Positions 36,687 through 64,000 of a stretch of 64,000 nucleotides of DNA are shown in pieces. Source of the DNA: a virus; the IMG/VR virus record IMGVR_UViG_3300025417_000566, positions 15,115 through 79,114 of that record; one strand, written 5' to 3'. A model generated the notes under the pieces. It had not been told where the DNA came from, ran no database searches, and saw only the letters and a program-made list of their open reading frames with translations. The first letter of the stretch is position 1; each line of letters begins with the position of its first letter. A program made the translations under genes and the position numbers.

Positions 36687-37040
36687 ATGACAGAAGCCAA
36701 AGAAGAAGATTACGTATTATTTTGGGAAGCACCCAAAATTGAAAAACCTGAATTCAGACTTTACTATGACGCAAAAGGCAGTGTTGTTTGTTATACTTGT
36801 GAAAAGTTAGACGGGGATTATATTGTAATTGATGCACTTACTTATGCAGAAGGACGCCCCGATGTTCGTGTTGTTAACGGAAAATTAGTAAAAATTAACA
36901 ACAATGCAGTAGTAAGTAAATTAGTTCCTGATGAAGAAGAAGGTCAACTTTGTTCTATTGATGATGTTAGTATCATCGTTACAAAGAAAGACAAAGTAAA
37001 AAAACAAAAATGGAAATTAGCAACTTATGAACTCGGATGA
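36687..37040 (+). CDS. Hypothetical protein
   Basis: 117-aa ORF filling the gap, overlapping the next gene. FRLYYDAKG...YIVID...RVVNGKLV is loosely like small fibre-chaperone N-terminal domains. Confidence 0.5.
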   Translation: MTEAKEEDYVLFWEAPKIEKPEFRLYYDAKGSVVCYTCEKLDGDYIVIDALTYAEGRPDVRVVNGKLVKINNNAVVSKLVPDEEEGQLCSIDDVSIIVTKKDKVKKQKWKLATYELG

Positions 37041-37980
37041 TATTGTTGATGTAGCAGACTTAGATTGCATTTATCTAAGTTATGACGAACCACAGAAAGA
37101 AGAATTTTGGTTAAAGATTAAGAACATGGTTCCTTGGGCAAAGCGTGTTGATGGGGTCAAAGGTAGTGATGCCGCACACAAAGCCGCAGGTGAGGCAAGT
37201 GAAACAGAACGTTTTATTCTTATTGACGGTGACAACATGCCTGATGAAGAATTCTTCAACATTCAGTTAGACTTTACTGATAAGAGTCCTAACTATAAAC
37301 AAGCACAGTTTCGTTGGAAAGCAGTTAATGCTATCAACGGACTACGATACGGTAACGGTGGCATGAGCAGTTGGACAAAGACTTATGTTGCTAATATGAA
37401 AACACACGAAAATCAAAATGAAGGTGATGTTTCACGTATTGCTGACTTTTGTTTAGATAGCGCAGACAACTTATACTGGGCTATGTACGATTGCTATAGC
37501 ACGACCTACCCTAATTACACTCCCTTTCAGGCTTGGCGTGCAGGTTTTCGTGAAGGTGTCAAGATGTGTTTGAATCGCGGTGCTGTACCCAGCATTGAAG
37601 AATTCAAAGAAACAGTTGCCAGTCGCAATCTAAACAACCTTACAATTTGGCACAATGTGGGCACAGATGTTGAGAATGGTATTTGGGCTATCTATGGTGC
37701 TAGATTAGGCACATACATGACTATGTTATCTGATTGGGATCATACTAATGTTCAATGGTTTGATAACTATATTGAAATGTGGGACCAATACAAAGACAGA
37801 GATCCTCAACACTCAGCAGAATTTTTTGGTGAAGCATTGAGTGACAAGTTAGGTCTACCTATCTGTACACTTAGCCCAGAACAAAGCAAGTTTTTCAAAC
37901 GTCATTATAATAGTGATAAACATAACTTAGGTCCTTTAGTAACTGAAATGGATGTTATTCGTAGGATCGAAGGCTGGTAA
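37027..37980 (+). CDS. Glycosyltransferase-like protein (GT-A/GT2-like)
   Basis: DCIYLSYDEP, RVDGVKGSDAAHKAA, FILIDGDN (DxD), YGNGG and QAWRAGFREGVKM. Confidence 0.7.
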   Translation: MNSDDIVDVADLDCIYLSYDEPQKEEFWLKIKNMVPWAKRVDGVKGSDAAHKAAGEASETERFILIDGDNMPDEEFFNIQLDFTDKSPNYKQAQFRWKAVNAINGLRYGNGGMSSWTKTYVANMKTHENQNEGDVSRIADFCLDSADNLYWAMYDCYSTTYPNYTPFQAWRAGFREGVKMCLNRGAVPSIEEFKETVASRNLNNLTIWHNVGTDVENGIWAIYGARLGTYMTMLSDWDHTNVQWFDNYIEMWDQYKDRDPQHSAEFFGEALSDKLGLPICTLSPEQSKFFKRHYNSDKHNLGPLVTEMDVIRRIEGW

Positions 37981-41880: not shown

Positions 41881-41882
41881 AC

Positions 41883-42140: not shown

Positions 42141-42141
42141 G

Positions 42142-43413
42142 ATGGACAAGGCAGTAGTCAAAAATCTAGTAGAAAACGGTAAACACTTTTGTGTGTTACC
42201 TTGGGTACACTTTCATGCATGGCCTGATAGCCGTGTAATGCCTTGCTGTGTTGCAGATAGCAACATGCCTGTGGCAAAGATTGAAAGTGATCAGTCTATC
42301 ATTGAAATGATGAACAGCGAAGACTACAAAAAGATTCGCACAGCAATGATGAATGACGAGCCTGTTGAGGCTTGCAAACGTTGTTATGACTTAGAATTAA
42401 TGGGCACATGGACTATGCGCCAAAGTCATAACAAGCGCAGAGGTCTAGATTATGTTGACTACATCGGTGACGTTACAAATGATGATGGCTCATTAAAAGA
42501 GTTTGAAATGAAATACATGGATATTCGTTTCAGTAATCTATGTAATATGAAATGTCGTAGTTGTGGCCCTGCATGTTCAAGTCAATGGGCACAAGAGTTC
42601 ATGGATCAACGTGGCGAAGAAGTATTCAAAGAGTACTTCCCTAATCAAAAAATTGTTGTTAACAACAACGAAGACCAAACACTTATGCTTAAACTAAAGC
42701 CATATCTTGCTGATGTGACTGAAGTATATTTTGCTGGTGGCGAAATCATTATTACACCTGAGCATTACGAATGTTTAGACTATTGGATTGAAAATGGATT
42801 AACAGATCAAGTTGAATTAAACTATACAACAAACTTCTCTTCATTGAAGTACAAGAAAAATGTAGACTTGATTGAATACTGGAGTAAGTTCCCCAACTTA
42901 CAAGTATGGGCTTCATTAGATGCACATGGCGACCTTGCTGAATGTATTCGCAAGGGTACTGATTGGTCTAAGATTGAAGCAAACATTCGTGAGATTAAAG
43001 AAAAAGTCCCGCATGTTAAGTTTCAAATCACTCCTACAATTAGTATTTGGAATGTGTTTGACTTCCCAGACTTCTTTGACTACATGATTGAAAAAGGATT
43101 TATCGATACTAGCAGTAGTCCACGATTTAATCTTGCAACTAACCCATGGTATGCAAACATTATGATTCTACCTAAACACGTTAAGCGTAGACTAACAGAA
43201 TTGTATAGAGTATACCAAGAAAAGTATAAAGATAACATTGATATCTATAATGGATTCAAAATGATTATCTATAACTTAAACGTGGGTGATGAAAACAAAG
43301 GTGGTATCTTAGAGTTCAAGCAGTTTAATGATGAACTTGACGGATTCCGTGATGAAAAACTTGAAAACATAGTACCAGAATTAAAAGAGGTTTATGAGTG
43401 GGCCGCAAGTTAA
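42142..43413 (+). CDS. Radical SAM enzyme with N-terminal Twitch domain
   Basis: CNMKCRSC, FAGGE, and N-terminal FCVLPW...PCC...ACKRC. Confidence 0.9.
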   Translation: MDKAVVKNLVENGKHFCVLPWVHFHAWPDSRVMPCCVADSNMPVAKIESDQSIIEMMNSEDYKKIRTAMMNDEPVEACKRCYDLELMGTWTMRQSHNKRRGLDYVDYIGDVTNDDGSLKEFEMKYMDIRFSNLCNMKCRSCGPACSSQWAQEFMDQRGEEVFKEYFPNQKIVVNNNEDQTLMLKLKPYLADVTEVYFAGGEIIITPEHYECLDYWIENGLTDQVELNYTTNFSSLKYKKNVDLIEYWSKFPNLQVWASLDAHGDLAECIRKGTDWSKIEANIREIKEKVPHVKFQITPTISIWNVFDFPDFFDYMIEKGFIDTSSSPRFNLATNPWYANIMILPKHVKRRLTELYRVYQEKYKDNIDIYNGFKMIIYNLNVGDENKGGILEFKQFNDELDGFRDEKLENIVPELKEVYEWAAS

Positions 43414-44369
43414 TAGCAATCGAAGCACCGCAGCCTTATGTTGCAGTAACATGGCAAGTTAACAATTTTTGTAACTTTCGTTGTAGTTACTGCAACCCTG
43501 GCAACTGGGGTGGAGAAAACCCAAACAACGGTAACTTAGATATCTATCTTAAAAACTTGCACGTAATCGCACAGCGTTATAAACGTTCAGGGTATAAGAA
43601 TTTTAAGTTCTTTTTTAGCGGCGGTGAACCTACTGCATGGCGCAACTTTATTCCTATCTGTGAATGGATTCGTCAAGAACTACCTGACAGCACTATTGCA
43701 GTTAACACTAATTTAAGTCGCCCACTAGCATGGTGGGAAAAACATCATCATTTGTTTGATGACATCGTTGCTAGTTTCCACGTAGAGTTTAGCGATAAAA
43801 AACGCTATGAAGAAAACAGCATTTACCTATGTGAACGTGTGAATTATCTTTCTAGTAAGATGCTAATGCACGAAGAAAGATTTTGGGAAATCGTTGAGTT
43901 TGCAGAATATCTTAAATCTGTAATGCCAAATTACTTTATTGAATGGACTCCGTTGTATGACGAACTAAGTCATGTTACTGGTCCATGGAATTACAAAGAC
44001 CCTGCTAAAACAGAATTCTTTAAAACACATAACATTGAAATGCAACAAACCAAAGACAAACCTGCCAAAAGTACTGAGTTTGCAGTAAGTTACAATCGTT
44101 ATGACGATGATTCAACACAAGTATGTAATGCTAACGACATTATTGTAAATGGGCAAAACTTCTTTAGTGGTTGGCAGTGCAATGTGGGCGACTGTATTTT
44201 CATTAATCCGGTTGGTGATGTTAGTCTAGCAAGTTGTGGACAAACTGAAAAGATAGGTCACATACTAGAAGATATCACTAGAGTGGGTCCAAAGCAAATC
44301 ACATGTAACAAAGAGATGTGCATGTGTGGTACAGATATTATCATTCCTAAATTTATAGTCGATAAATAA
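43398..44369 (+). CDS. Radical SAM enzyme with C-terminal Cys-rich (Twitch-like) domain
   Basis: CNFRCSYC near the N-terminus, FSGGEP, and C-terminal CNVG...SCG...CNKEMCMC. GTG start with GAGG RBS. Confidence 0.88.
   Translation: MGRKLIAIEAPQPYVAVTWQVNNFCNFRCSYCNPGNWGGENPNNGNLDIYLKNLHVIAQRYKRSGYKNFKFFFSGGEPTAWRNFIPICEWIRQELPDSTIAVNTNLSRPLAWWEKHHHLFDDIVASFHVEFSDKKRYEENSIYLCERVNYLSSKMLMHEERFWEIVEFAEYLKSVMPNYFIEWTPLYDELSHVTGPWNYKDPAKTEFFKTHNIEMQQTKDKPAKSTEFAVSYNRYDDDSTQVCNANDIIVNGQNFFSGWQCNVGDCIFINPVGDVSLASCGQTEKIGHILEDITRVGPKQITCNKEMCMCGTDIIIPKFIVDK
44361..44368 (+). promoter_or_regulatory. T4-late-like promoter (GATAAATA)
   Basis: Overlaps the stop of the rSAM gene, 5 nt before the ATG at 44374. 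Confidence 0.4.
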
Positions 44370-47770: not shown

Positions 47771-48666
47771 AAAAGAAATATATTATCGGATTGGGTTGTA
47801 GTTGGACACAGGGTGAAGGTGGATACCCGGACGAAATCGTTAAACAATATAACGGTAGAGTACAGATTAGTAATAGGGGTAAAAATGATTACCACTTACG
47901 CAAATATGAACTCGAAAATAGTTGGGTTAACCAATTAGCACGTGATCATTTCCCTGATTATACCCCATTGAATTTGGGAATTAAGGGTATTGGCAACAGA
48001 GCAGCCGTTCATCAACTACACTTTGTAGACAACATTGATTGGAGTAATAGCACAGGTATTATTGTGTTTATGATGTCCGGTGTTGAGCGTTTTGACTTCT
48101 TTAGAGAACATCCCAAAACCATTAGTGATCATCGAATTACTCAACCAGATGGATACAGTAATGGTGAGTTTGAACATAATAAATGGAGAACAATGTGGCC
48201 AGCACCAGATAATGGTGGTGAGGAGGGGCCGCTTTGGAACTGCTATGCAAAAATGTTATGGAGTGAACAGTTTGCTGCCTGTGAGCAAATGATGGCACTA
48301 TTAGATTTACAGGCATTTGCAAAAGCACATGGATTTAAAGTGGTAATTGCTAATGCATTTAATCATCATAATCCACAAGGTATTAAATACTATCTACAAG
48401 AGAACGCGGGTTCATTGGCAAATAAATTTGATTGGAATGGATACATACACGATGAAGTCCCCTATATTGCATTTATGCAAAAACTTGTTTGGTGTGATGG
48501 ATTAATGGATCCAATGCAATGGGGAGGATTTTATCAGTTTTATAAACAACGTGATTGGCCTGCTGAATACTTGACTAATTGCGACGGTTCACACCCAACA
48601 ACCAAGGGTTACAAAGTAATTGCAGATGAGTTAGCAGAATTTATAAAGTTGCGAGGATATGCCTAA
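47767..48666 (+). CDS. SGNH/GDSL-fold protein (esterase or O-acyltransferase-like)
   Basis: GLGCSWTQG (block I), NLGIKGIGN (block II) and DGSHPTTKGYKVIADEL (block V). The ATG at 47767 forms an ATGA overlap. Confidence 0.7.
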   Translation: MKKKYIIGLGCSWTQGEGGYPDEIVKQYNGRVQISNRGKNDYHLRKYELENSWVNQLARDHFPDYTPLNLGIKGIGNRAAVHQLHFVDNIDWSNSTGIIVFMMSGVERFDFFREHPKTISDHRITQPDGYSNGEFEHNKWRTMWPAPDNGGEEGPLWNCYAKMLWSEQFAACEQMMALLDLQAFAKAHGFKVVIANAFNHHNPQGIKYYLQENAGSLANKFDWNGYIHDEVPYIAFMQKLVWCDGLMDPMQWGGFYQFYKQRDWPAEYLTNCDGSHPTTKGYKVIADELAEFIKLRGYA

Positions 48667-50584
48667 AAAGAAAATAAGTTTCGTAAGTCCAAACTTTCAG
48701 CAAGGTCCGAAAGAGTATAATGCTTTCTACTTGCCTTATAGCCCTGCGGTATTATGGAGTTACGTAAACCAATTCCCTCATATCAGTGATCATTATGAAC
48801 TTGGGGAATTCATTTGGCGTAGAGATTATATTGAAGAAGCAGTAGAATTATTAAAAGATAGTGCTATTGTTGGCTTCAGCACTTATATTTGGAATCGTAG
48901 TTATAGTGCAGTTCTTGGTAGAGAACTAAAGAAGGCTAATCCAGATATCTTTATCATTGCAGGTGGACCTGAATATCCTATTGAAAAAGAAGGGTTCTTT
49001 GAAAAGTATCCTTTCATTGATGTATGTGTTAAACTTGAAGGCGAAATATCTTTTAGAAGAATATTAGAGAATTTGCATACAGGCGATACTTTTACTGATA
49101 TTCCAGGCTTGCTTATCAATGATAACGGCAAAACTATCGACACAGGTAGTAGCCCACGCATTGACGAATTAGACACAATTCCTAGTCCATATTTAACAGG
49201 TATCTTTGACAAACTAATGGCAAAGCATCCTGAGATTCGTTGGAATGCAACACTAGAAACAAATCGCGGATGCCCTTATGCATGTACATTCTGCGACTGG
49301 GGAAGTTTAACATACAACAAAGTTAAGAAGTTTAACTTAGAACGTGTATATGCTGAATTAGAATGGATTGGTCAAAAGGGATTAGACTTTGTTAGTTTTA
49401 CTGATGCCAACTTTGGTATCTTCCCTGAGCGTGATGGTCTTATTGCTGACAAACTAATTGAAGTACAACAGACTTATGGTAATCCCAAAGCATATACAAT
49501 TGCATGGGCAAAGAATCAAAAGCAAGAAGTTGTTGACATTGTGCGCAAGTTAATTTATGAAGGTGGTGCAAAGATTGGATTGAATCTAAGCGTACAATCA
49601 ATGGATGACAATGTATTGGACATCATTAAGCGTAAGAACTTAGAGATGAACAAGATTGAAGAAGTGTTTAAGATGTGTGAAGAACACAACATCCCATTAT
49701 ACACAGAATTGATTTTAGGATTGCCCGGTGAAACATTAGACAGTTGGAAGGAAAACTTTTATAAACTATATAAGAGTGGTAACCACACTGGTATCACAAT
49801 CTATCAAGCACAGTTACTTGAAAATGCTGAAATGAATTTAACACAGCGTAAACTCTACAAGTTAGAAGGTCGTGTTGTGTATGATTATCTTGTTGGTACA
49901 TATAACGAACATGAATTGCGTGAAGGTGTTGAAGTTGTTATTTCTACCCGTGACTTGCCAATTGAAAAGATGACGCAAGCACAAGTACACAGTTGGTTTC
50001 AGAACACATTTCACATTAATGGTATCACTAACTACATCAGCCGTGTGTTGTATAAACTTAAGGGAATAGAGTATCGTGAATTCTATGAAAAGTTGTATGC
50101 ACACATTGAAAAGGATCCTTGGCTAGCAAGTGAGATTCATCGTATTGCAGAACACTATCAAAACTGGGGTAAGTATGGTCGCATTGATCATACTCCGATT
50201 CAAGGTATGGAAATTCATGGATGGAATTTAGTGCATAGTACGACAATTAATATACATAGTGAAGATAAACACAAACATGTGTTTGATGTAATTGAAGATT
50301 TCTTGCATACTGAGTTTGATATTGAAGAAAGTTTATTACAAGAACTAATGATATTCCAAAGAAATTATTTGGTTGATCACAAAGACATTGCAAACTATCC
50401 TAAGGTACTATCCTTTAAGCATGATATCCCTAGTTACGTGCAAGATGCTAGTGAATTGGTTAGCCCTTGTGAATATGAATTTGATTTCCCTGAAGATAAA
50501 GATCAATCATTGCAAAGATTCTGTGAACAAATCTTTTTTGCAAGACGTAGAAATTTTGGTAAGTCATGGATCACGAAGAAATAA
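48659..50584 (+). CDS. Cobalamin-binding radical SAM enzyme (class B methylase-like)
   Basis: N-terminal B12-binding-type IVGFSTYIWN...IIAGGP...LEGE, then LETNRGCPYACTFCDW and ELILGLPGET. Confidence 0.88.
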   Translation: MPKKKISFVSPNFQQGPKEYNAFYLPYSPAVLWSYVNQFPHISDHYELGEFIWRRDYIEEAVELLKDSAIVGFSTYIWNRSYSAVLGRELKKANPDIFIIAGGPEYPIEKEGFFEKYPFIDVCVKLEGEISFRRILENLHTGDTFTDIPGLLINDNGKTIDTGSSPRIDELDTIPSPYLTGIFDKLMAKHPEIRWNATLETNRGCPYACTFCDWGSLTYNKVKKFNLERVYAELEWIGQKGLDFVSFTDANFGIFPERDGLIADKLIEVQQTYGNPKAYTIAWAKNQKQEVVDIVRKLIYEGGAKIGLNLSVQSMDDNVLDIIKRKNLEMNKIEEVFKMCEEHNIPLYTELILGLPGETLDSWKENFYKLYKSGNHTGITIYQAQLLENAEMNLTQRKLYKLEGRVVYDYLVGTYNEHELREGVEVVISTRDLPIEKMTQAQVHSWFQNTFHINGITNYISRVLYKLKGIEYREFYEKLYAHIEKDPWLASEIHRIAEHYQNWGKYGRIDHTPIQGMEIHGWNLVHSTTINIHSEDKHKHVFDVIEDFLHTEFDIEESLLQELMIFQRNYLVDHKDIANYPKVLSFKHDIPSYVQDASELVSPCEYEFDFPEDKDQSLQRFCEQIFFARRRNFGKSWITKK

Positions 50585-52662: not shown

Positions 52663-54534
52663 ATGAAAAAGGTTGCAATGATCGGGGTAGGAAAATTAGG
52701 CGAACCCTGCGCCACTGTAATGGCTCAACAATACGATGTTGTTGGGTTCGATAGCGTACACGTAAATGCTAGTTTTCCAATGAAAAGTAGCATACAAGAG
52801 GCAGTACAAGATAGAGATATCATTTTTATTGCTGTACCAACCCCACATGACCCTAGATATGGTGGAGAAACACCATCAAGTCATTTACCCAATACAGATT
52901 TTGATTATAGTATTGTTACTAACACATTGAACGAAATCAACAAATATGTTAGTAAAGATCAACTTGTTGTATTGATTAGTACTGTGCTACCGGGCACTGT
53001 TCGAAGTCGTTTTATCAATTACATTACTAATGCACGTTTCATTTATAACCCATACTTGATTGCTATGGGCACTGTTGCTGATGACTTTGTTAATCCTGAG
53101 ATGATTATCATTGGAACTGAAGACGGATCAATAACAGGTGATGCAAGTGAGTTGATTGACTTTTATGCACCATTAATGCAAAACAATCCACGCATTGAAG
53201 TTGGTACTTGGGACGAAGCCGAAGCAATCAAGATTTTCTATAACACCTTTATTAGTACAAAACTTGCATTAGTAAATATGATTCAAGACGTTGCAGAGAC
53301 TAGTGGCAATATTAATGTTGACGTTGTTACTAACGCATTAGCAAAGTCAACATATCGCATCATGGGCCCTGCATATATGAAAGCAGGTATGGGCGATGGT
53401 GGTGCATGTCATCCACGTGATAACATTGCATTACGTTATCTAGCAGATAAATTAAATTTAGGTTATGATTTGTTTGATAGCATTATGACTGCTAGAGAAG
53501 TGCAGGCAAAAAGACTTGCACAAAAGTGTTTAAAATATGGTAACAATGTAACTATCATTGGCAAAGCATATAAGCCTAACGTAAATTATACTAACGGTAG
53601 CAGTAGTTTGTTAGTTGGACATTATGTCACTGAGTTAGGTGGTAACGTAAATTACTATGATGTTCACACAGGGGACACCGATCTCAAAACAGATACCACA
53701 GATGTTTATATGATTGGTTATTGGGACAAATATGTTACTGATTTGCAATTGCCAAATACTGCGGTAGTTATTGATCCATGGCGTCAATACAACGGAACAT
53801 CAAAACAAACAGTACATTACGGTAATACAAGACAAACTAAAGAAAAACAATACAGAGAATCATTAGACCATATCGATACCATAAGATTAAAAAGTGGTAT
53901 AATGATTAAGCACCCTAAAAAAATTGACGGTGGTGGATTATACTTTAGAGATGACTTAATTGAAGTTATTAAAAAGACAGGAAAGTATGTCTATAACAGA
54001 GGCTTTGAATGGTGTGCTGGCTTTGGCGTATTAGGTTACGAAATGCTGGGTTTGGGAATCTGTAACTATATTGTATTTTCAGATATGTTTGAACCAGCCA
54101 TTGAAAACTGCAAACAAACAGCAAAGAACAATAATCTATCAAATTATGTTACAACATATTTGACTCCTAATATTGCTGATATCCCTGATAGCGAAAAATG
54201 GGATTTAGTTATCAGTAACCCTCCCCATAGTGATATTACTTACGAAGATTTTAAAGCAGATATGCTCAACAAAAATAGTGAAATGTTTGACTTTATTTTA
54301 GAAAATACTGCCAGACTTGTTATTGATCCTGATTTTAAGATTCACGGCGAATTCTTCAATAATATATCAAAACATTTAACTGCTGATGCCGATGTTTACT
54401 TGATTGAAAATCATTATTATGAAAAAATGGAACATATGGCTAAAGTCAATAATTTAAAATTGGTAGGAATGTATCCAATGAAGGATAAGTCTATGCAAAA
54501 CGGAGTAATCCTTCACTTTAAACCTATGACTTAA
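52663..54534 (+). CDS. ugd: UDP-glucose/GDP-mannose 6-dehydrogenase fused to a C-terminal class I SAM methyltransferase
   Basis: IGVGKLG, FIAVPTP, ISTVLPGT, YNPYLIAMG, IKIFYNTFISTK and GDGGACHPRD form the dehydrogenase. After ~53860, FEWCAGFGVLG and WDLVISNPPH are MTase motifs I and IV. Confidence 0.85.
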   Translation: MKKVAMIGVGKLGEPCATVMAQQYDVVGFDSVHVNASFPMKSSIQEAVQDRDIIFIAVPTPHDPRYGGETPSSHLPNTDFDYSIVTNTLNEINKYVSKDQLVVLISTVLPGTVRSRFINYITNARFIYNPYLIAMGTVADDFVNPEMIIIGTEDGSITGDASELIDFYAPLMQNNPRIEVGTWDEAEAIKIFYNTFISTKLALVNMIQDVAETSGNINVDVVTNALAKSTYRIMGPAYMKAGMGDGGACHPRDNIALRYLADKLNLGYDLFDSIMTAREVQAKRLAQKCLKYGNNVTIIGKAYKPNVNYTNGSSSLLVGHYVTELGGNVNYYDVHTGDTDLKTDTTDVYMIGYWDKYVTDLQLPNTAVVIDPWRQYNGTSKQTVHYGNTRQTKEKQYRESLDHIDTIRLKSGIMIKHPKKIDGGGLYFRDDLIEVIKKTGKYVYNRGFEWCAGFGVLGYEMLGLGICNYIVFSDMFEPAIENCKQTAKNNNLSNYVTTYLTPNIADIPDSEKWDLVISNPPHSDITYEDFKADMLNKNSEMFDFILENTARLVIDPDFKIHGEFFNNISKHLTADADVYLIENHYYEKMEHMAKVNNLKLVGMYPMKDKSMQNGVILHFKPMT

Positions 54535-54584: not shown

Positions 54585-56900
54585 TTGGATTTTAATTTAC
54601 GTAGTTTGGCTGTAGACGAGTTAAAGCCAAAAGAAAGACCAACAGAAGATATAGCAGATGCACGCCATCGTAGCATGATGGAAGCCATTGCCCCTTATGC
54701 CAAATCAGTAGTAGTAAATCAAAAGAATCTTACTCCGGTATATGTAGATTACAAGACAAGAAACACTAAACTTGTGCTTGTACTATGCCCTGAATGGAGT
54801 CCCTATATGCCCCCATTTAGTCTTGCTAGACTTAGTGGTGTGGCAAAAAGTGCGGGATACGAAACGCACATCATGGACTTGAATGTTAAAGCATATAATG
54901 CTTATCGTGATGATTGGCAACCAAACAAGAAATTACCATTTAGACTTTGGGACCCTGCAAGTTCATGGCACTGGTTAGGTGACACGTACATGAATGATAT
55001 TCATCCTGTGTTAGAACCTATTCTTAGCGAAGCAGTAGACAAGATTATTGAAATGAACCCAAGTGTTGTTGGATTCAGTATCTATTACATTAGCGAAGAG
55101 CCTAGCAAATGGATGTGCCAAGAAATTAAACGTAGAGCACCTCATATTAAGATTGCAGTTGGTGGGCCTAATGTACACAAGAGTTGGTTTAAGATTGAAG
55201 ACTATTATGATTATGTTATTGTAGGTGAAGGCGAACAGAATTTATTAGTAATGCTTGATGAAATCGAAGCAGGATCAGATCACAGTGGTGCAGCCAGAGT
55301 ATTAACACAGCCTGAAGATCAACGTATCAATATCAATGGTCTTCCTATGCCAGACTATGAGAGTATTGACTTTAGTTTGTACGAAGTACCTAATGGAGTT
55401 AACAGTGAGATTAGTCGTGGATGTACAGCAAAGTGTACATTCTGTGAAGAAACACACTTTTGGAAATATCGTCAACGTCAAAGTGTTGACTTAATTACCG
55501 AAGTTGAATGGTTATACTACAACAAAGGCACTGACATCATTTGGTTCATTGATAGTTTGATCAATGGTAATATTAAAGAACTACGTGCATTTGCATTAGG
55601 ACTTAAAGCCAAATACTTAAAGGTTCGTTGGACTGGTTATGCACGTTGCGATGGTCGTATGACATTAGACTATCTGCAAGACTTAGCAGATGGTGGATGC
55701 ATTATGTTTAACTTTGGTTGTGAATCAGGATCACAAAAAGTATTAGACGATATGCACAAAGGTGTTACCATTCAAGAAATGGAACAGAACTTTATTGACT
55801 GTAAAAAAGTAGGCATCTGGGCCGCAACTAACTGGATCGTTGGATTCCCCACTGAAGAGTATCAAGACTATAGCGATACAATGACATTCATGTGGCGTAT
55901 GCGTAACAACAATATCAATAACATGGGTCTTGGTGTGGGATATGGATTAGGTCCTGAAACAATTGTAGGACAGAATCCACACGCATACAATGTATCGTGG
56001 CACAAATATCAAGGTCACTGGATCAGCAATGATTTAAAAATGGGTGGCACACACGTTATGACACGTGTTAAGTGCATTCACATTTGGCTAGATATGTTTA
56101 ATGGTTGCACAGAAGTTCCTGTGACATATCCTGTACGTCATGCACTTGCACAGCGTCATTACAACATCAGATTGAATAATCCTGCAAAACAAAAAGAAAT
56201 GCATTATGAAGAATTTGATTACAATATCATTCCACCTGTTGACTCAAACAATCCATTTGCAAATGCATTAGTAAATGAAATGTGGCCTTTCTTTAGAAAT
56301 CTATGGCGCGCACGTGGTGGCTATGAAGCAGAAATCTTATTTCACCCTGACTTAGATATCAAAGAGTTTGGCCAACAGTTTGGTCCTGAAATGTATTATG
56401 CAAAGTACAAGTTTAAGATCACTGATGAAGGTCAATGGGAAGCAGACTTTGATATTAAGTTTGAACAAATTGATAATCCTTGGGATGATCGTAAACCACC
56501 ACCAGAAGGTCGTAAAGGCCCATTCTATGCACAAGATTATTCACGCTTGCAAAGTAACACAGTTAAACGTGCAAGAAAGTTAGCAAAAGCAACTTGGAGT
56601 GAAGAAGAAGGTCGTAGTGGACAAGACTTTGCTGACTTATTAAATGAAGAAGCAGTACTTAATGCTACTATTGATTTTAGTTTTGAATTAAAGTGGCAAG
56701 GCACAGGTGATTGGAGTAACTACATGGACTATGTAGTTACACTAGAAGAGAAAGAACAGAAACGTGACAAGAGTAAAGACTTGTCTATGCCAGAAAAAGA
56801 AACGTTTGAGGGCACTGAAGTTAAATCAGTTGTGCCAGCAACAACCGTAATTACTTTAGACAGCATCAAACGAACAAGACCAAAGCATTTATTACCATGA
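54585..56900 (+). CDS. Cobalamin-binding radical SAM enzyme (class B methylase-like) with long C-terminal extension
   Basis: PPFSLARL, VVGFSIY, IAVGGP, VGEGE, EISRGCTAKCTFC, FGCESGSQKVLDDMHKG and WIVGFPTE. Confidence 0.88.
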   Translation: MDFNLRSLAVDELKPKERPTEDIADARHRSMMEAIAPYAKSVVVNQKNLTPVYVDYKTRNTKLVLVLCPEWSPYMPPFSLARLSGVAKSAGYETHIMDLNVKAYNAYRDDWQPNKKLPFRLWDPASSWHWLGDTYMNDIHPVLEPILSEAVDKIIEMNPSVVGFSIYYISEEPSKWMCQEIKRRAPHIKIAVGGPNVHKSWFKIEDYYDYVIVGEGEQNLLVMLDEIEAGSDHSGAARVLTQPEDQRININGLPMPDYESIDFSLYEVPNGVNSEISRGCTAKCTFCEETHFWKYRQRQSVDLITEVEWLYYNKGTDIIWFIDSLINGNIKELRAFALGLKAKYLKVRWTGYARCDGRMTLDYLQDLADGGCIMFNFGCESGSQKVLDDMHKGVTIQEMEQNFIDCKKVGIWAATNWIVGFPTEEYQDYSDTMTFMWRMRNNNINNMGLGVGYGLGPETIVGQNPHAYNVSWHKYQGHWISNDLKMGGTHVMTRVKCIHIWLDMFNGCTEVPVTYPVRHALAQRHYNIRLNNPAKQKEMHYEEFDYNIIPPVDSNNPFANALVNEMWPFFRNLWRARGGYEAEILFHPDLDIKEFGQQFGPEMYYAKYKFKITDEGQWEADFDIKFEQIDNPWDDRKPPPEGRKGPFYAQDYSRLQSNTVKRARKLAKATWSEEEGRSGQDFADLLNEEAVLNATIDFSFELKWQGTGDWSNYMDYVVTLEEKEQKRDKSKDLSMPEKETFEGTEVKSVVPATTVITLDSIKRTRPKHLLP

Positions 56901-57652: not shown

Positions 57653-57749
57653 TTGGGTAAAAAGAATTTACAATAAAATCAAACGTGAGATACAATATAG
57701 AAAACGTATCAAAGAATTAAAAAAGCGTGACCCTTTCATCTATAAATAA
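57645..57749 (+). CDS. 34-aa basic peptide ending ...KRDPFIYK (not in ORF track)
   Basis: MFNWVKRIYNKIKREIQYRKRIKELKKRDPFIYK*. It has an AAGGA RBS and fills the gap before the carbamoyltransferase. Confidence 0.7.
   Translation: MFNWVKRIYNKIKREIQYRKRIKELKKRDPFIYK
57741..57748 (+). promoter_or_regulatory. T4 late promoter consensus TATAAATA
   Basis: Perfect consensus overlapping the end of the peptide gene, 5 nt before the ATG at 57754. Confidence 0.45.
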
Positions 57750-57753
57750 GCAC

Positions 57754-59238
57754 ATGAAATACTTAGGAATCAGTTGCGGCTTTCATGATGCAGGTATAAC
57801 TGTCATTAATGACAGTGGTGATATCCTATTTGCTGGTCACAGCGAAAGATACAGTAAAATCAAACATGATGCTAATCTTTGTGTTGATTTAGTGCATGAT
57901 GCTAAAAAACATGTTAGAGACCTATATGAAGTTCACTACTATGAAAAGCCCTGGGTAAAGGCTATACGTCAACTTAGAGCAGGACAAAGTGTTGGACCGC
58001 TTAATATGAAAAAACTATTAGGTGAAAATATCATTGATAAATTTAATGATCGTAGTGGTTCAATTAAAACACATAGTCATCACTTAACACATGCGGCAGC
58101 AGGATTCCAAACTAGCCCCTTTGACAATGCAACTGTAGTAGTTATTGACGCTATTGGGGAACTCGACACTATCAGCATTTATAATGCATACTATGATAAA
58201 AATGGTATGGCACGTTATGAAAAACTATGGAGTAAACAATATCCTAACAGCATTGGATTGATGTACTCAGCAATGACAAAACGTGTGGGGTTGAAACCAT
58301 TAGATGAAGAATACATTCTCATGGGTATGGTTGCATATGGCAAAGCATTGCACAGTGAAGAAATTAGTCGTGAGTTTTTGTCAGACAAAGATAACTTAGA
58401 TTTTGCACAAAACTTGCACACCGGAGTAAGAGAAAAATTCTTAGAGAATGCCAACGATATGGATATCGCCGCATCAACTCAACTTCTTACTGAAGAACTA
58501 ATTGAAATCATTATGCGTAAGGCTAGATCATTGGGTACTAGCAGTAATCTAGTATATGGTGGCGGTGTTGCATTAAACTGTTTAGCAAATAGATTGTTAG
58601 GTAATCATTTTAGCAAAATTTGGATCATGCCTAATCCAGGTGATGCAGGTAATAGTTTAGGTGCGGCAGCATTAGGCTATGGTAAAAAGTTAAATTGGAA
58701 GAATGCATTTTTAGGACACGAAATACCTGGTCGTTATCCTATTTTAAACTTGTATAAAGAATTAAAACATAGTAAGATAGTAGGTATAGCAAGTGGTCGT
58801 GCAGAGTTTGGGCCACGTGCTTTAGGTAACAGAAGTTTATTAGCGGATCCCCGTGGGGATGAAATTAAGGATAAAGTAAATGAAATCAAACGTAGACAAA
58901 AATTCAGACCATTTGCGCCTCTCATTTTGGAGGAGTTGGTTCATGATTACTTTGATATGCCTGTTGGCTGGGACAACTCTAGGTATATGCAAGTCATCGC
59001 TACTTGTAGGCATCCTGACCTATTTCCTGCTATCGTTCACGCTGACGGCACTAGTCGTGTCCAGACTGTTCCTAAAGATGGAAGTGGAATCAGAATTCTC
59101 TTAGAACTTTGGTATCAAGCCACAGGATGTCCAATATTGCTTAATACATCACTAAACATCCGTGGCGAACCAATGGTCAATGACCGTAGTGATGCAGATA
59201 GATTTGAAAAACTTTATGGCGTAAAAGTTTACTCTTAA
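57754..59238 (+). CDS. O-carbamoyltransferase, NodU/CmcH/TobZ family
   Basis: YLGISCGFHDA, HSERYSKIKHD, HHLTHAAAGF, VIDAIGE, GGVALNC, PNPGDAG, EFGPRALGNRSLLADP, FRPFAP, HADGTSRVQTV and LLNTSLN. The likely start is the ATG at 57754, not the GTG at 57727. Confidence 0.93.
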   Translation: MKYLGISCGFHDAGITVINDSGDILFAGHSERYSKIKHDANLCVDLVHDAKKHVRDLYEVHYYEKPWVKAIRQLRAGQSVGPLNMKKLLGENIIDKFNDRSGSIKTHSHHLTHAAAGFQTSPFDNATVVVIDAIGELDTISIYNAYYDKNGMARYEKLWSKQYPNSIGLMYSAMTKRVGLKPLDEEYILMGMVAYGKALHSEEISREFLSDKDNLDFAQNLHTGVREKFLENANDMDIAASTQLLTEELIEIIMRKARSLGTSSNLVYGGGVALNCLANRLLGNHFSKIWIMPNPGDAGNSLGAAALGYGKKLNWKNAFLGHEIPGRYPILNLYKELKHSKIVGIASGRAEFGPRALGNRSLLADPRGDEIKDKVNEIKRRQKFRPFAPLILEELVHDYFDMPVGWDNSRYMQVIATCRHPDLFPAIVHADGTSRVQTVPKDGSGIRILLELWYQATGCPILLNTSLNIRGEPMVNDRSDADRFEKLYGVKVYS

Positions 59239-59245: not shown

Positions 59246-62200
59246 ATGCTTAGAGATGTATTCTATTACGGAAATAAACCAAACGTTCACCCCAGAGAAA
59301 GATTTGCAGAATCATTAGAAGATGCAAGAGAAAAGTGTACAACCGAACACTTTTGGATCATCAATGAATTCTGTGACTATCGAGGATTCGACTGGGATTT
59401 TGATTTTGAATTCTTACCTGATGAAGAAGTGTGGGCAGAAGAACATAACAATGTCTGGCCCAGCCAACATCAAAAAGACAGTGGCACATGGTTATGCCCC
59501 AAAGAACCAGGTGAAGTTATCATATATCGCAGTGATGTAGACCCTGTTGTTAGAAAAAACGAAAAGAATGATAACTGGGTATTATTAGATAATATAGACG
59601 AATACAAATTTGATTTTAGTTGGCATCCAGACCCAACTGATCCTCCCTATATCTATCGCTGGGGTTCAAAGTTTGCACCAGTACAATTAAAACCTGTATT
59701 AGAATATCATACACCTAATGCAACTGAAGTCAAATACATGGCTACAACAGTTGAACTTACGATTGAAAGAGATAAATGGGTATTCTATCAACAGCCTGAT
59801 CCTAATAAATTTGACTTTACATGGAGACCTAATCCATTGGATCCGCCATACATTTACGTATGGGGTAACAAACATATTGATGGTACATTAAAACCCACTG
59901 TTGAATATCATGTACCAGGCGCAACTGATAAAAAGTACATGCCTGAAAAATTAGAAGTATTACCTGAATGGGACAAGTGGGCGCTTTTAAAAGAAGTAGA
60001 TAAAACAAAATTTGATTTTACATGGAGACCCGACCCACGTGAGCCGGCTTACATTTATACATGGGGCAATAAATACGAACCTGCTGAAATAACACCTACG
60101 TTGCAGTATGTGTGTGATGGTGCTACAGAAATAAAATACATGGGTGATACTATAGATGTGCTACCACAATGGGACAAGTGGGATATCATTTTACCTATAG
60201 ATAAATCTACATTTGATTTTACATGGAGACCTGATCCACGTGAACCTAATTTAAATTATGTGTTTGGCAATGACCAGTATGATAGTACTATCATGCCTAC
60301 ACTTATCTATAAGATGGAAGGTGCTACAGATGAAAAGCACATGCCAAGTAACACAAAGTTATTACCACAAAAGCAAAACTTTGAATTTTTAGAAAACAGC
60401 GATGGCATTGATTATAGTTGGGTACCTAATCCAACTGCGCCTCCTTATATCTATGCATGGGGCAATCAATGGAACAAAGCAGAAGATAAGATTAGTATTC
60501 AATATGTAGTTGAAGGTGCAACAGAATATCAATACATGGATGAACGTGCTATTCGTAAATTCTGTATGGATAATTGGATTATTCCTGACAATGTTGACAC
60601 AACAGGCTTTGATTTTAGTTGGGAACCTAATCCTAATGATCCTCCTTATATTTATGAATTTGCTACGCAGTGGCAAAAGACAGGTGGACCTCGCTATGTA
60701 GTAGAGGGTGCAACTGAAACAAAGTACATGGACTTTCAAAAGGCTAAAAAGTTAGTTGATATGACTAACTGGACTATTCCTAAGAATGTTGATGTTAGCA
60801 ACTTTGACTTTAGTTGGCATCCAGATGCAACAAGTCCTCCTTATATCTATAACTTCCCTACGCAATGGGCATTAAGCGGTGGACCAACATATACTGTTCC
60901 TAATGCAACAGAAGTAAAATACGTAGATGATCAATCGGCAAAGGCAATTCCTAATAAAGATAATTGGGATTTTGATCCAACGTTGATTGACGAAAACAGT
61001 TTTGATTTTAGTTGGCATCCGTATGCTGAAGACGAACCCTATATCTATCAGTTTGGTACACAGTGGCAAAAAACAGGTGGACCAAGATATATTACACCTG
61101 GAGTACATAAGAACAGTCCAGTTAGTTATGTAGACACACGTGTATTAAAAGCAAAGCGTTTACCTAATCAAAAGAACTGGGCTGTACTTGATAACTTAGT
61201 TATAATTGATTTTGATTATAGTTGGCATCCTGACGAAACAGAAGAACCTTACATTTATCAGTTTGGTAATAACTTGTATCCAGCAGAGATTATGCCAACA
61301 GTAGAGTATAGTGTTCCTAAGGCAAAACAAGTTAAGTATGTTAGTGATATCATTGCTACACTAGGGCAAGATAGAACTAACTGGGAAATCCCCGACAACG
61401 TTGATACTACAGGATTTGATTTTAGTTGGAAGCCTAATCCCAAAGACCCACCCTATATCTATGAGTTTGCAACTCAGTGGCAGAAGACTGGCGGTCCTAA
61501 ATATATTGTAGAAGGTGCAACTGAAACAAAGTATATTGACACATGCAAAGTTAAAAGATTGCCTTCCGAAGAAAACTGGACTGTACCTACTAACATTGAT
61601 ATTACTGATTTTGATTTTAGTTGGCATCCAGATGCGACAAGTCCACCATACATTTATAACTTTGCAACTCAGTGGGCATTAAGTGGTGGTCCTGTATATA
61701 CTGTACCTGGGGCAACAGAAATCAAATATGTAGAAGATCAAACTGCACGTGCATTGCCTGATAAAACGAATTGGCAATACGATAGTAATTTAATTGATGA
61801 AAACAGTTTTGATTTTAGTTGGCATCCCTATGTAGAAGATCAACCTTATATCTATATCTTTGGTACACAATGGCAAAAGACTGGTGGTCCAAAATATATT
61901 ACACCAGGCTGTCATAAAAACAGTCCTGTAAAATATATTGACACACGTATTATTAAAGCAAAACGTTTGCCATCAATGAACCACTGGAATATGATATATG
62001 ATATTGATATGTCAAGTTTTGATTTTAGTTGGCATCCAGATGATACAGATGATCCTTTTATTTACCAATTCGGTAATACACAATATCCTGCAGAAGAAAT
62101 GCCTACAGTAGAGTATTGCGTTGAAGGTGCTAAGAAATTCAAATATGTGTCAGATGTTGTTGCTAAGTTAGCACCTAATACTGATAACTGGATTATACCT

Positions 62201-64000
62201 AAAGGTATAGATACAACTGAATTTGATTTTAGTTGGCATCCACATCCTAAGGATCCTCCTTATATCTATGAGTTTGCAACTCAATGGCAAAAAACAGGTG
62301 GACCACAATACAAAGTATACGGTGCAACTGAAGTCAAGTATGTTTCTGAACCCAAAGCAAAGAAACTACCTAATATGAAAAACTGGGTAGTACCAGACAA
62401 TATTGATGTTGATGGTTTTGATTTTAGTTGGCACCCTGACGATACTGCACCACCTTACACGTATCAATTCCCCACGCAGTGGGCATTGACAGGCGGACCC
62501 GTGTATGTGGTGCCTAATGCAACTATAAAGAAATATGAAGAATGTCAAACAGCAAGAGTTCTTCCTAGTACAAAAAACTGGGAATATGATGCTACACAGA
62601 TTGACGTAAGTTCATTTGACTTTAGTTGGCATCCATATGCAGAAGATGATCCTTTCATTTATCAGTTTGGTACTCAATGGCAAAAGACAGGTGGACCAAA
62701 ATATATTACGCCAGGCACCACTGCTGATAGCCCAGTAAAATACGTAGACACACGTATTATTAAAGCAAAGCGTTTGCCAAACAAAGATAACTTTGTTGTG
62801 CTGCCTGGCTTTAACATTAAAGAGTTTGATTATAGTTGGCATCCAGATGATACTGAACCTGCATACACCTATGTATTTGGTAACGAATGGCATAGTGCAG
62901 AGCGTGAACCTACACTTGAGTATCGTGTAATTAATTCAACAGATAAAAAATATATTAATAATGTATTTGCTAAGTTAACTCCTGATATGAGTTTGTGGGA
63001 TATTCCCGACAACGTTGATATATCTAAGTTTGACTTTAGTTGGCATCCAGACCCACATTCACCACCTTATATCTATGAGTTTGCAACAGTGTGGCAAAAT
63101 CGAGGAGGTCCTAAATACAAAACTCCAGGTGCAACTGAAGTAAAATATATTGAAGACATTAAAGCACCGTTAGTGCCTAGTAAAAAGAATTGGTTGATTC
63201 CTGAAAATGTAGATGTATCAACATTTGATTTTTCATGGGTACCTCATCCACTAGCGCCACCTTATATCTATCAGTTTGGTACAATTTTAGATGAGAAAGA
63301 TGGCCCAAGATATCTTACACCAGGTAATAACGGAGAGATTGTATACTTAGATCGTATTGAAGTTGATCCTGCAACATTAGTTGAAGTAAAGATTGGTCAA
63401 TACTTTATTGATACAACACTTGAAGATTTAGTAAAGAAACATCCTGACGAAATCTTTTGGGCGATGCAAAAAAACATTGACTATTCTACATTTGATTTTG
63501 CATGGAGACCTGAAGTTATCAACATTGCTTGGGAATCTGATTACGTTAACGTGTTCGGTTCACCTGATAGTGAAGTTACGCAGACATACTTTGTTAATGC
63601 AAAGTCTTATTTGAAAGGCAAAACAGATTTCAAATTTATTGAGGAGACTGCAATTGATGATAAGTCATTGGCTAAACTGTTTAAAAAGCCAGACATGTTC
63701 TACGTTGACAAAGGCAATAAAGAATCATCAGCACGTTTTGAATTACTCAAAGCCAAGTTCCCGCACATTCAAAAGACACGTTATCTAAACAGTTGGGTAG
63801 ACACAATCAATCGTTGTACTAATCGTGCAACCACTCCCATATTATGGATATTGAATAGTGAGTTAGATTACAGTAACTTTGACTTTGAATACTATCCTAA
63901 CCCTTGGCAGATGAAAATGGTTCATGTATTTGGTACTCAATGGAGTCATTGGGGAACCACATTCATGGTCAATCGTGAAACGTTTAGCAATGATACCAAA
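59246..64000 (+). CDS. Large repeat protein (>1585 aa, runs off the window; absent from the ORF track) with ~19 tandem FDFSWxP repeats flanked by degenerate GT-A-like segments
   Basis: ATG at 59246 (MLRDVFYYGNKPNVHPRE...). The repeats and the last codons (...FMVNRETFSNDTK) are in the same frame, and I saw no stop. Repeat core FDF(S/T)WxPxxxxPPYIYxF(G/A)xQW. Confidence 0.85.
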   Translation, partial: MLRDVFYYGNKPNVHPRERFAESLEDAREKCTTEHFWIINEFCDYRGFDWDFDFEFLPDEEVWAEEHNNVWPSQHQKDSGTWLCPKEPGEVIIYRSDVDPVVRKNEKNDNWVLLDNIDEYKFDFSWHPDPTDPPYIYRWGSKFAPVQLKPVLEYHTPNATEVKYMATTVELTIERDKWVFYQQPDPNKFDFTWRPNPLDPPYIYVWGNKHIDGTLKPTVEYHVPGATDKKYMPEKLEVLPEWDKWALLKEVDKTKFDFTWRPDPREPAYIYTWGNKYEPAEITPTLQYVCDGATEIKYMGDTIDVLPQWDKWDIILPIDKSTFDFTWRPDPREPNLNYVFGNDQYDSTIMPTLIYKMEGATDEKHMPSNTKLLPQKQNFEFLENSDGIDYSWVPNPTAPPYIYAWGNQWNKAEDKISIQYVVEGATEYQYMDERAIRKFCMDNWIIPDNVDTTGFDFSWEPNPNDPPYIYEFATQWQKTGGPRYVVEGATETKYMDFQKAKKLVDMTNWTIPKNVDVSNFDFSWHPDATSPPYIYNFPTQWALSGGPTYTVPNATEVKYVDDQSAKAIPNKDNWDFDPTLIDENSFDFSWHPYAEDEPYIYQFGTQWQKTGGPRYITPGVHKNSPVSYVDTRVLKAKRLPNQKNWAVLDNLVIIDFDYSWHPDETEEPYIYQFGNNLYPAEIMPTVEYSVPKAKQVKYVSDIIATLGQDRTNWEIPDNVDTTGFDFSWKPNPKDPPYIYEFATQWQKTGGPKYIVEGATETKYIDTCKVKRLPSEENWTVPTNIDITDFDFSWHPDATSPPYIYNFATQWALSGGPVYTVPGATEIKYVEDQTARALPDKTNWQYDSNLIDENSFDFSWHPYVEDQPYIYIFGTQWQKTGGPKYITPGCHKNSPVKYIDTRIIKAKRLPSMNHWNMIYDIDMSSFDFSWHPDDTDDPFIYQFGNTQYPAEEMPTVEYCVEGAKKFKYVSDVVAKLAPNTDNWIIPKGIDTTEFDFSWHPHPKDPPYIYEFATQWQKTGGPQYKVYGATEVKYVSEPKAKKLPNMKNWVVPDNIDVDGFDFSWHPDDTAPPYTYQFPTQWALTGGPVYVVPNATIKKYEECQTARVLPSTKNWEYDATQIDVSSFDFSWHPYAEDDPFIYQFGTQWQKTGGPKYITPGTTADSPVKYVDTRIIKAKRLPNKDNFVVLPGFNIKEFDYSWHPDDTEPAYTYVFGNEWHSAEREPTLEYRVINSTDKKYINNVFAKLTPDMSLWDIPDNVDISKFDFSWHPDPHSPPYIYEFATVWQNRGGPKYKTPGATEVKYIEDIKAPLVPSKKNWLIPENVDVSTFDFSWVPHPLAPPYIYQFGTILDEKDGPRYLTPGNNGEIVYLDRIEVDPATLVEVKIGQYFIDTTLEDLVKKHPDEIFWAMQKNIDYSTFDFAWRPEVINIAWESDYVNVFGSPDSEVTQTYFVNAKSYLKGKTDFKFIEETAIDDKSLAKLFKKPDMFYVDKGNKESSARFELLKAKFPHIQKTRYLNSWVDTINRCTNRATTPILWILNSELDYSNFDFEYYPNPWQMKMVHVFGTQWSHWGTTFMVNRETFSNDTK
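59570..63330 (+). repeat. Coding tandem repeat, ~195-210-nt unit, with an exact 807-nt four-unit super-repeat
   Basis: FDF/FDY anchors at ~59609, 59810, 60011, 60212, 60407, 60608, 60803, 61001, 61211, 61415, 61610, 61808, 62018, 62222, 62417, 62615, 62825, 63029 and 63224. Confidence 0.9.

What the first reader, a model, noticed from the sequence alone, without database searches (positions are those of the whole stretch)
60560..63330. Exact 807-nt (269-aa) four-unit super-repeat: an ordered A-B-C-D pattern within the repeat protein
The units cycle through four types. A (W(E/K/H)P(N/H)PxDPPYIYEFATQWQKTGGP) is at 60608, 61415 and 62222, with a diverged copy at 63029. B (WHPDxTxPPY...QWAL(S/T)GGP) is at 60803, 61610 and 62417. 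C (WHPYxEDxP...QWQKTGGP, with a longer linker) is at 61001, 61808 and 62615. D (WHPDxT...FGN) is at 61211, 62018 and 62825. Every same-type spacing is exactly 807 nt even though synonymous sites have diverged, so the length and order of the tetrad appear to be selected. This is compatible with a four-module structural turn or with reading a periodic ligand such as a repeating oligosaccharide.
Basis: partly seen in the sequence, partly recalled or inferred. Interest (0 to 1): 0.7.

Follow-up and report, generated by a model that had tools for sequence, protein, structure and literature searches.

The report
Ordered four-unit repeat in phage protein
A giant protein of an uncultured jumbo phage carries three old, strictly ordered copies of a four-module block. 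Each module is an amplified fragment of a sugar-transferase (GT-A) fold, the design is common in environmental phages, and its function has never been tested.

Summary
Units of types A, B, C and D (65, 66, 70 and 68 aa) sit at the stated coordinates and form three 807-nt tetrads with no indel, followed by a fourth A. The tetrads are old: they share 67-71% of bases, dS is 1.4-1.7 and dN/dS is 0.13-0.22.

The order is conserved in relatives. ABCD occurs 218 times in 120 cluster representatives, against about 3 after shuffling. Tetrad length is 268-270 aa in 95 of 109 cases. Relatives also use AD dimers and ABCDN pentads, so four is not obligatory.

The ORF is the first 1585 codons of a 2053-aa gene cut by the contig end. 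Each unit is a small, confidently modelled all-beta domain that matches the half of a GT-A fold after the DXD strand. Three fuller GT-A-like modules follow the array; none has a canonical DXD.

An O-carbamoyltransferase gene lies directly upstream in 56 of 57 related loci, inside a phage sugar-tailoring cluster.

My best reading is a non-catalytic, cassette-quantised stalk or glycan-binding scaffold inside a glycosyltransferase-like protein. The function is inferred, not shown. This scan has already noted the family on other DNA. I found no Pfam family and no paper describing it.

The parts
59246..64000 (+). First 1585 codons of a 2053-aa gene, cut by the contig end. The full length is P0017, and L009 carries residues 450-2053.
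59246..59608 (+). Conserved N-terminal head module (residues 1-121). It is a reduced Rossmann-like beta-alpha-beta ending in an FDF..LPD motif. Even short relatives with 2-6 units have it.
   Evidence: reading of the sequence
59609..60607 (+). Five N-type units (65-67 aa, about 201-nt period). They are of the PT.EY flavour and are closest to type D.
60608..61414 (+). Tetrad 1 (A1 B1 C1 D1), 807 nt or 269 aa, counted from the FDFSW anchor. The structural domain boundary lies 45 nt upstream, at the NW..IP..N(I/V)D strand.
61415..62221 (+). Tetrad 2 (A2 B2 C2 D2), 807 nt.
62222..63028 (+). Tetrad 3 (A3 B3 C3 D3), 807 nt.
63029..63421 (+). A4, which lies 807 nt after A3, followed by one degenerate unit (X5) that occupies the B position but is not B-like.
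63428..64000 (+). Start of the conserved C-terminal region. It holds one degenerate unit (anchor at 63491) and the first half of GT-A-like module M1, which begins near 63671. M1's second half, M2 and M3 lie beyond the window, in L009:3406-4812.
57727..59238 (+). NodU/CmcH-type carbamoyltransferase, the conserved upstream partner. It is found directly upstream in 56 of 57 related loci.
37027..37980 (+). Stand-alone paralog of module M3 that keeps D-G-D where M3 has F-A-K.

Best explanation
The 807-nt period is a real, ancient and selectively maintained super-repeat of four diverged modules, A-B-C-D. Each module (65-70 aa, all-beta) is an amplified copy of the C-terminal half of a GT-A-like module, starting at the strand that normally carries DXD. 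Fuller versions of that module survive in the C-terminal third of the same protein. The modules lack the nucleotide-binding half, so the array itself is not catalytic. It forms a long, acidic stalk rich in aromatic residues and proline, placed between a conserved head module and three GT-A-like modules. The array grows and shrinks by whole cassettes of the form A[B][C]D[N], which explains why length and order are preserved. The protein is a fixed partner of an O-carbamoyltransferase inside a jumbo-phage sugar-synthesis and tailoring cluster. From this I infer that the array is a spacer, scaffold or multivalent acceptor/glycan-binding platform for that glycan machinery.

Shown here: the repeat anatomy, its age, purifying selection, conserved order, the GT-A relationship and the gene neighbourhood. 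Inferred only: rigidity of the array, glycan binding and any enzyme activity.
For: Whole-tetrad birth and death: some lineages show tetrads grouped by position and others show tetrads grouped by protein. Full-length relatives range from 2 to 33 units with the same head and tail, and a repeat-less 607-aa form exists.

The double-tetrad model has pLDDT 91.9 and pTM 0.63 and is all-beta. All 18 VIA hits (Z 2.0-3.8) are GT-A or nucleotidyltransferase folds, each aligned to a single unit. Nine of those chains are also among the top 50 for the C-terminal modules.

The unit-A profile aligns to the post-DXD half of module M1 (hhalign E 1.8e-5). The C-terminal model has pLDDT 87.8 and three GT-A-fold modules with Z 8-10.2. 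Foldseek matches it to tandem GT-A enzymes (K4CP, LH3, Mimivirus R699) at E about 1e-5 and probability 0.98.

The carbamoyltransferase is adjacent in 56 of 57 loci, and other cluster genes are conserved in 41-48 loci. The cluster content is shown.
Against: No activity, binding or localisation data exist. The unit-level fold matches are weak (Z below 4). I could not read model coordinates, so rigidity, rise and twist were not measured. None of the three full modules has a canonical DXD: M1 has N-S-E, M2 has S-S-I and M3 has F-A-K. The protein may therefore be a pseudo-enzyme, or it may use a metal-independent mechanism. Unit typing in distant relatives relies on HMMs built from this one protein. 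In-register duplication is also what unequal recombination would give mechanically, so conserved order is not by itself proof of selection for order.
Confidence: 0.6

Rival explanations
1. The tetrad is a historical accident. A four-unit block happened to be duplicated by unequal crossing-over. Each unit is kept only for foldability as a generic spacer bead, and neither unit type nor order has a function of its own.
For: Recombination between like units yields in-register whole-cassette changes automatically. Relatives tolerate 2-, 3-, 4- and 5-unit periods and 2-33 units. Some lineages show recent, protein-specific tetrad duplications.
Against: Type-specific residues are at least 90% conserved across proteins whose arrays are only about 50-70% identical. 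Examples are WHPY and SPVKY.DTRI in C, QWAL(S/T)GGP in B and FGN..Y.AE.MPT.EY in D. dN/dS is 0.13-0.22 with saturated dS. The types carry distinct, conserved charges: median net charge is A -2, B -7, C +2 and D -9. The transition grammar is strict: B is followed by C in 253 of 292 cases and C by D in 287 of 346.
Confidence: 0.2
2. The protein is a virion component: a fibre, whisker or decoration shaft built from GT-A-derived beads. The tetrad would set the fibre's length or its periodic contacts.
For: The gene lies on the same strand downstream of the baseplate and giant-fibre genes of a Rak2/121Q-like myophage. The array is an elongated, beta-rich model. The weak Foldseek neighbours are S-layer, cadherin and fibre-like multi-domain rods.
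Against: There is no structural PHROG or Pfam match; the only hit is a tail-sheath match at E 0.0034. The gene is embedded among enzymes and coupled to a carbamoyltransferase. The head and the triple GT-A tail are more conserved than the array, with many invariant polar residues, which looks like an enzyme. A repeat-less form exists. No trimerisation or fibre-tip domains were seen.
Confidence: 0.12
3. The array binds DNA or another non-glycan polymer. In that case the cluster would serve DNA hypermodification, with the repeats tracking the helix.
For: Phage glycosyltransferases and carbamoyltransferases can act on modified DNA bases (general knowledge; cited as background in PMC12619734). The array is periodic.
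Against: The array is strongly acidic, with pI 4.7, and three of the four unit types have net negative charge. The neighbours are nucleotide-sugar enzymes: UDP-Glc/GDP-Man dehydrogenase, an epimerase and, in a relative, DegT. No nucleic-acid-binding fold was matched.
Confidence: 0.04

Closest known systems
Tandem GT-A enzymes: E. coli K4 chondroitin polymerase (PDB 2z87), Pasteurella heparosan synthase 2 (8vh8), human LH3 (6fxr), Mimivirus R699 (9dyt)
   Same: They carry several GT-A-fold modules in one chain and act in glycan synthesis. They are the best Foldseek matches to the C-terminal 659 aa (E about 1e-5, probability 0.98).
   Different: They have two modules with functional DXD motifs and no array of half-domains. 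Here none of the three modules has a canonical DXD, there is no sequence-level match to any curated GT family, and 19 half-domain units are inserted.
Stand-alone phage GT-A-like proteins of about 300-380 aa (window 37027-37980; a hypothetical protein of Ralstonia phage RsoM2USA)
   Same: They are homologous to the last module, M3 (BLASTP 32% identity over 177 aa; tblastn E 2e-8; Atlas clusters of viral proteins).
   Different: The stand-alone form keeps D-G-D and has no repeats. M3 has F-A-K with an invariant Lys.
Super-repeat proteins such as titin (7- and 11-domain Ig/Fn3 super-repeats) and nebulin (7-module super-repeat); from my own knowledge
   Same: Small modules have diverged into ordered types. 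The higher-order period is conserved better than the individual copies.
   Different: Those folds are unrelated and eukaryotic, and their period is known to match a periodic filament partner. No partner is known here, and the period varies among relatives (2, 3, 4 or 5 units).
Bacterial stalk repeats (SasG/Aap G5-E, SHIRT) and the WbdD coiled-coil ruler of O-antigen length; from my own knowledge
   Same: They are variable-number rigid spacers that set a distance. For WbdD that distance sets glycan chain length.
   Different: The folds differ. No evidence here bears on membrane anchoring or on chain-length control.

Membership tests
GT-A fold glycosyltransferases (C-terminal modules M1-M3) | Rossmann-like alpha/beta/alpha GT-A fold | tested here: met
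   VIA Z 8-10.2 over 122-144 aligned residues for model ranges 82-214, 216-346 and 435-580. Foldseek gives probability 0.98 to tandem GT-A enzymes. The model has pLDDT 87.8.
GT-A fold glycosyltransferases (C-terminal modules M1-M3) | DXD (metal and nucleotide-sugar binding) motif at the end of strand beta4 | tested here: not met
   M3 has F-A-K where its stand-alone paralog has D-G-D. In the same register M2 has S-S-I, and M1 has N-S-E, which keeps one acidic residue. The M1-to-M3 register rests on a non-significant global alignment, so M1 remains ambiguous.
GT-A fold glycosyltransferases (C-terminal modules M1-M3) | Match to a curated GT sequence family | tested here: not met
   No Pfam GT family was hit at E up to 1 or 0.1. 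No PDB sequence was hit with the single protein or with the profile. The Atlas gives only a weak GT2 lead of 0.85.
GT-A fold glycosyltransferases (C-terminal modules M1-M3) | Sugar transfer activity | not testable with these tools
   This needs an enzyme assay.
GT-A domain (the repeat units themselves) | Complete domain including the nucleotide-binding half | tested here: not met
   The units are 65-70 aa and all-beta. They align to about 60-66 residues of GT-A chains only and to the post-DXD half of M1.
Ordered super-repeat proteins (titin/nebulin-like organisation) | Diverged unit types in a fixed order that is conserved among homologs | tested here: met
   ABCD occurs 218 times against 3.1 after shuffling. 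Type signatures are conserved. Tetrad length is 268-270 aa in 95 of 109 cases.
Ordered super-repeat proteins (titin/nebulin-like organisation) | Period matched to a periodic binding partner | not testable with these tools
   No partner is known. The period varies among relatives: AD, ACD, ABCD and ABCDN.
Phage tail fibre or virion structural protein | Similarity to known structural families | tested here: inconclusive
   The only PHROG match is marginal, at E 0.0034. BFVD matches only two uncharacterised uncultured Caudovirales proteins.

The most novel reading that the evidence does not exclude
The cassette-quantised array is a molecular ruler or template. Its ordered A-B-C-D modules, derived from the acceptor side of a glycosyltransferase, would each hold one position of a repeating phage-made glycan, or would set the distance between the head module and the catalytic modules. 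The number of cassettes would then dictate glycan length or pattern. This would be a protein-encoded template for a polysaccharide.
Probability: 0.12. Interest if true: 0.85.

Novelty: new variant of a known kind. Interest (0 to 1): 0.55.

Why it matters
The array shows a way of making a repeat protein that I have not seen described: a fragment of an enzyme fold is amplified and then differentiated into ordered module types. The family is very common in environmental jumbo phages, with more than 4000 clusters at 90% identity, yet it has no name, no Pfam model and no tested function. It sits at the heart of a large phage-encoded sugar-tailoring cluster containing radical SAM enzymes, B12-dependent radical SAM enzymes, a carbamoyltransferase and nucleotide-sugar enzymes. 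If the array binds or measures glycans, it would give a handle on how large phages build complex glycans. It would also be a rare case of a super-repeat outside eukaryotic filament rulers.

Tried and rejected
- Tandem Repeats Finder found nothing, because its longest period is 500 and the copies are too diverged.
- tblastn of the window part against 50,697 cultured phage records found nothing. The C-terminal domain hit only one hypothetical protein, in Ralstonia phage RsoM2USA.
- Pfam, PHROGs and PDB sequence searches gave only sub-threshold noise.
- Foldseek of the eight-unit model against the PDB gave nothing below E 0.6.
- 'Recent duplication' is rejected, because dS is 1.4-1.7.
- A strict four-module turn is disfavoured by the AD and ABCDN periods in relatives.
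- DNA binding is disfavoured, because the array has pI 4.7.
- I looked for periodicity in the neighbouring 6475-aa protein as a possible periodic substrate. It has no Pfam match and almost no DNA repeats.
- Two literature searches and two papers (PMC12619734 and bioRxiv 10.64898/2026.10.24.761521) gave no description of this family.
- Model coordinates are not exposed, so helical rise and twist per tetrad could not be measured.

Full report
**Setting**

The window is the last 64 kb of a 79-kb IMG/VR viral contig, which CheckV rates at about 22% complete. Its baseplate genes match those of Rak2/121Q-like jumbo myophages of about 350 kb at roughly 33% identity.

All genes lie on the + strand. 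Baseplate genes come first, followed by a 6475-aa ORF. A long enzyme cluster follows, containing:
- several radical SAM enzymes with an N-terminal SPASM domain;
- two B12-binding radical SAM enzymes;
- a GDP-mannose-epimerase-like SDR;
- a UDP-Glc/GDP-Man dehydrogenase fused to a methyltransferase;
- DUF6071 proteins;
- a NodU/CmcH-type carbamoyltransferase.

The finding is the next ORF, 59246..64000, which runs off the contig end.

**Observation**

Every coordinate in the finding is correct. The units are anchored by FDFSW(H)P...PYIY.FG. After a 121-aa head module come five N-type units of about 67 aa. Then come A (65 aa), B (66), C (70) and D (68), repeated three times at exactly 807 nt, then a fourth A at 63029, then a degenerate unit.

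The tetrads share 67-71% of bases and 62-70% of residues. Third codon positions are 52-55% identical. dS is 1.42-1.66 and dN/dS is 0.13-0.22. In a maximum-likelihood tree of the 19 units, B, C and D are clades. A is a grade next to B and C, and the N units group near D. Profile comparison agrees: A is closest to B and C, and D is closest to N.

**Relatives**

A search of 5.8 billion proteins returned 1389 relatives in the 871-2774 aa length band. The shorter length band returned 3039 more, even though only the top 8000 candidates were scored. Where a source gives any name, it is 'hypothetical protein'.

P0017 is identical to the window protein over all 1585 residues and has 2053 aa. L009 supplies the DNA for residues 450-2053.

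ABCD appears in 95 of 120 cluster representatives, in 1-5 copies, 218 times in all. Shuffling unit order within proteins gives 3.1 on average, with a maximum of 10 in 1000 shuffles. The transitions are:

| Transition | Count |
|---|---|
| B followed by C | 253 of 292 |
| C followed by D | 287 of 346 |
| D followed by A | 418 of 536 |
| B preceded by A | 288 of 324 |

In 79 viral loci the tetrad is 268-270 aa in 95 of 109 cases. Unit lengths are nearly fixed: A is 65 aa in 100 of 109, C is 70 in 93 and D is 68 in 97. Each type keeps its own signature at 90% or more across 74-77 distinct copies.

The order in homologs is therefore not random. The tetrad is not universal, however. Some relatives have true AD alternation (133 aa) and others have ABCDN pentads, which I checked by reading the units. 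ACD trimers appear in the HMM typing only. The general grammar is A[B][C]D[N].

A tree of 57 tetrads from 17 proteins shows both patterns. Some first and last tetrads are positional orthologues. In other lineages the tetrads group by protein, which indicates whole-cassette duplication within that lineage. Full-length relatives with the same head and tail carry from 2 to 33 units. A repeat-less 607-aa form lies on a contig binned as Haliscomenobacter, again near a carbamoyltransferase, a DegT aminotransferase and an epimerase.

**What the units are**

AlphaFold2 on an alignment of 31 double tetrads gives pLDDT 91.9 and pTM 0.63, with an all-beta model. Foldseek finds nothing in the PDB.

The Foldseek-independent VIA search finds only 18 chains with Z of 2 or more. 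All 18 are GT-A glycosyltransferases or the related nucleotidyltransferase fold, and each aligns to exactly one unit over 60-68 residues. These Z values (2.0-3.8) are weak taken singly. Two things give them weight: the list is uniform, and nine of these chains recur among the top 50 for the C-terminal modules.

The aligned ranges put the structural boundary about 15 residues before FDFSW, at the conserved NW.IP.N(I/V)D strand.

The C-terminal 659 aa, modelled from 45 sequences (pLDDT 87.8, pTM 0.73), contain three GT-A-fold modules at model residues 82-214, 216-346 and 435-580 (Z 8-10.2). This region resembles tandem GT-A enzymes such as K4CP, LH3, Mimivirus R699 and heparosan synthase (E about 1e-5, probability 0.98). 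M1 and M2 are clear paralogs (hhalign 98.5%, E 2e-14).

The unit-A profile aligns to the part of M1 that follows the DXD-position strand (FDFEYYPNP...VFGTQWSHWGTT; E 1.8e-5). The units are thus amplified copies of the C-terminal half of such a module, without the nucleotide-binding half.

**Catalytic motifs**

The stand-alone paralog at 37027-37980 has D-G-D where M3 has F-A-K, with an invariant Lys. In the same register M2 has S-S-I and M1 has N-S-E (this register is by fold logic, not by a significant alignment). The units have P-x-N. No module has a canonical DXD.

Even so, M1 and M3 carry many invariant polar residues. Either a non-canonical activity or a conserved binding role is therefore plausible. 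I cannot decide between these.

**Context**

tblastn of the window's genes against 77 related loci finds the carbamoyltransferase directly upstream (median distance 744 nt) in 56 of the 57 loci that have at least 8 kb of upstream flank. The B12 radical SAM genes and two unassigned genes are present in 41-48 of them. Downstream in L009 lie another radical SAM gene, a methyltransferase-like gene and a glycine-zipper protein. The protein is therefore a core member of this sugar-tailoring cluster.

**Properties of the array**

The array has pI 4.7, 16% aromatic residues and 10% proline. Median net charge by type is A -2, B -7, C +2 and D -9. This gives a periodic charge pattern, and it argues against nucleic-acid binding.

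**Interpretation**

The following are shown: a real, old, selected and ordered super-repeat of GT-A half-domains, evolving by whole cassettes, inside a GT-A-like multi-module protein that is tied to a carbamoyltransferase.

The following are inferred: the array is a non-catalytic stalk, scaffold or multivalent glycan-binding platform.

Three rivals remain:
- the order is only a by-product of in-register recombination;
- the protein is a virion fibre;
- the array binds DNA (unlikely).

The ruler or template reading is the most novel possibility and is untested.

**Novelty**

No Pfam family, PDB relative or paper describing the family was found. BFVD holds only two uncharacterised uncultured Caudovirales proteins with this fold.

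This scan has already noted the family on other DNA, including two followed-up reports with the same overall reading. I reached the GT-A-fragment reading, the FAK-versus-DGD point and the variable super-repeat period from my own runs.

This report adds the tetrad's age and selection, the family-wide cassette grammar, the evidence for cassette birth and death, the carbamoyltransferase linkage and the repeat-less form.

Noticed in passing
window 12345-31772 (+): A 6475-aa ORF directly after the baseplate wedge gene. It has no Pfam match and almost no DNA repeats. It is presumably a giant fibre or structural protein.
   Followed up: partly
window 37980-44369 (+) and L009:4812-5963: A run of radical SAM enzymes in which the SPASM/Twitch auxiliary domain lies at the N-terminus, before the radical SAM core. 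A further copy lies just downstream of the repeat-protein gene.
   Followed up: partly
window 52663-54534 (+): A UDP-Glc/GDP-Man dehydrogenase fused to a small methyltransferase domain (MTS).
   Followed up: no
window 48659-50584 and 54585-56900 (+): Two B12-binding radical SAM enzymes, conserved next to the repeat-protein gene in 41 of 57 related loci.
   Followed up: partly
L088 (contig NZ_JBBAKG010000003.1, binned as Haliscomenobacter sp.): A repeat-less 607-aa relative (39% identity to the C-terminal region) near a carbamoyltransferase, DegT, an epimerase and ThyX, on a 148-kb contig. It may be a mis-binned phage contig or a weak hint of a Bacteroidota host.
   Followed up: partly
L009:7291-7707: A small glycine-zipper (Rick_17kDa_Anti / Gly-zipper_Omp) protein two genes downstream of the repeat-protein gene.
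   Followed up: no
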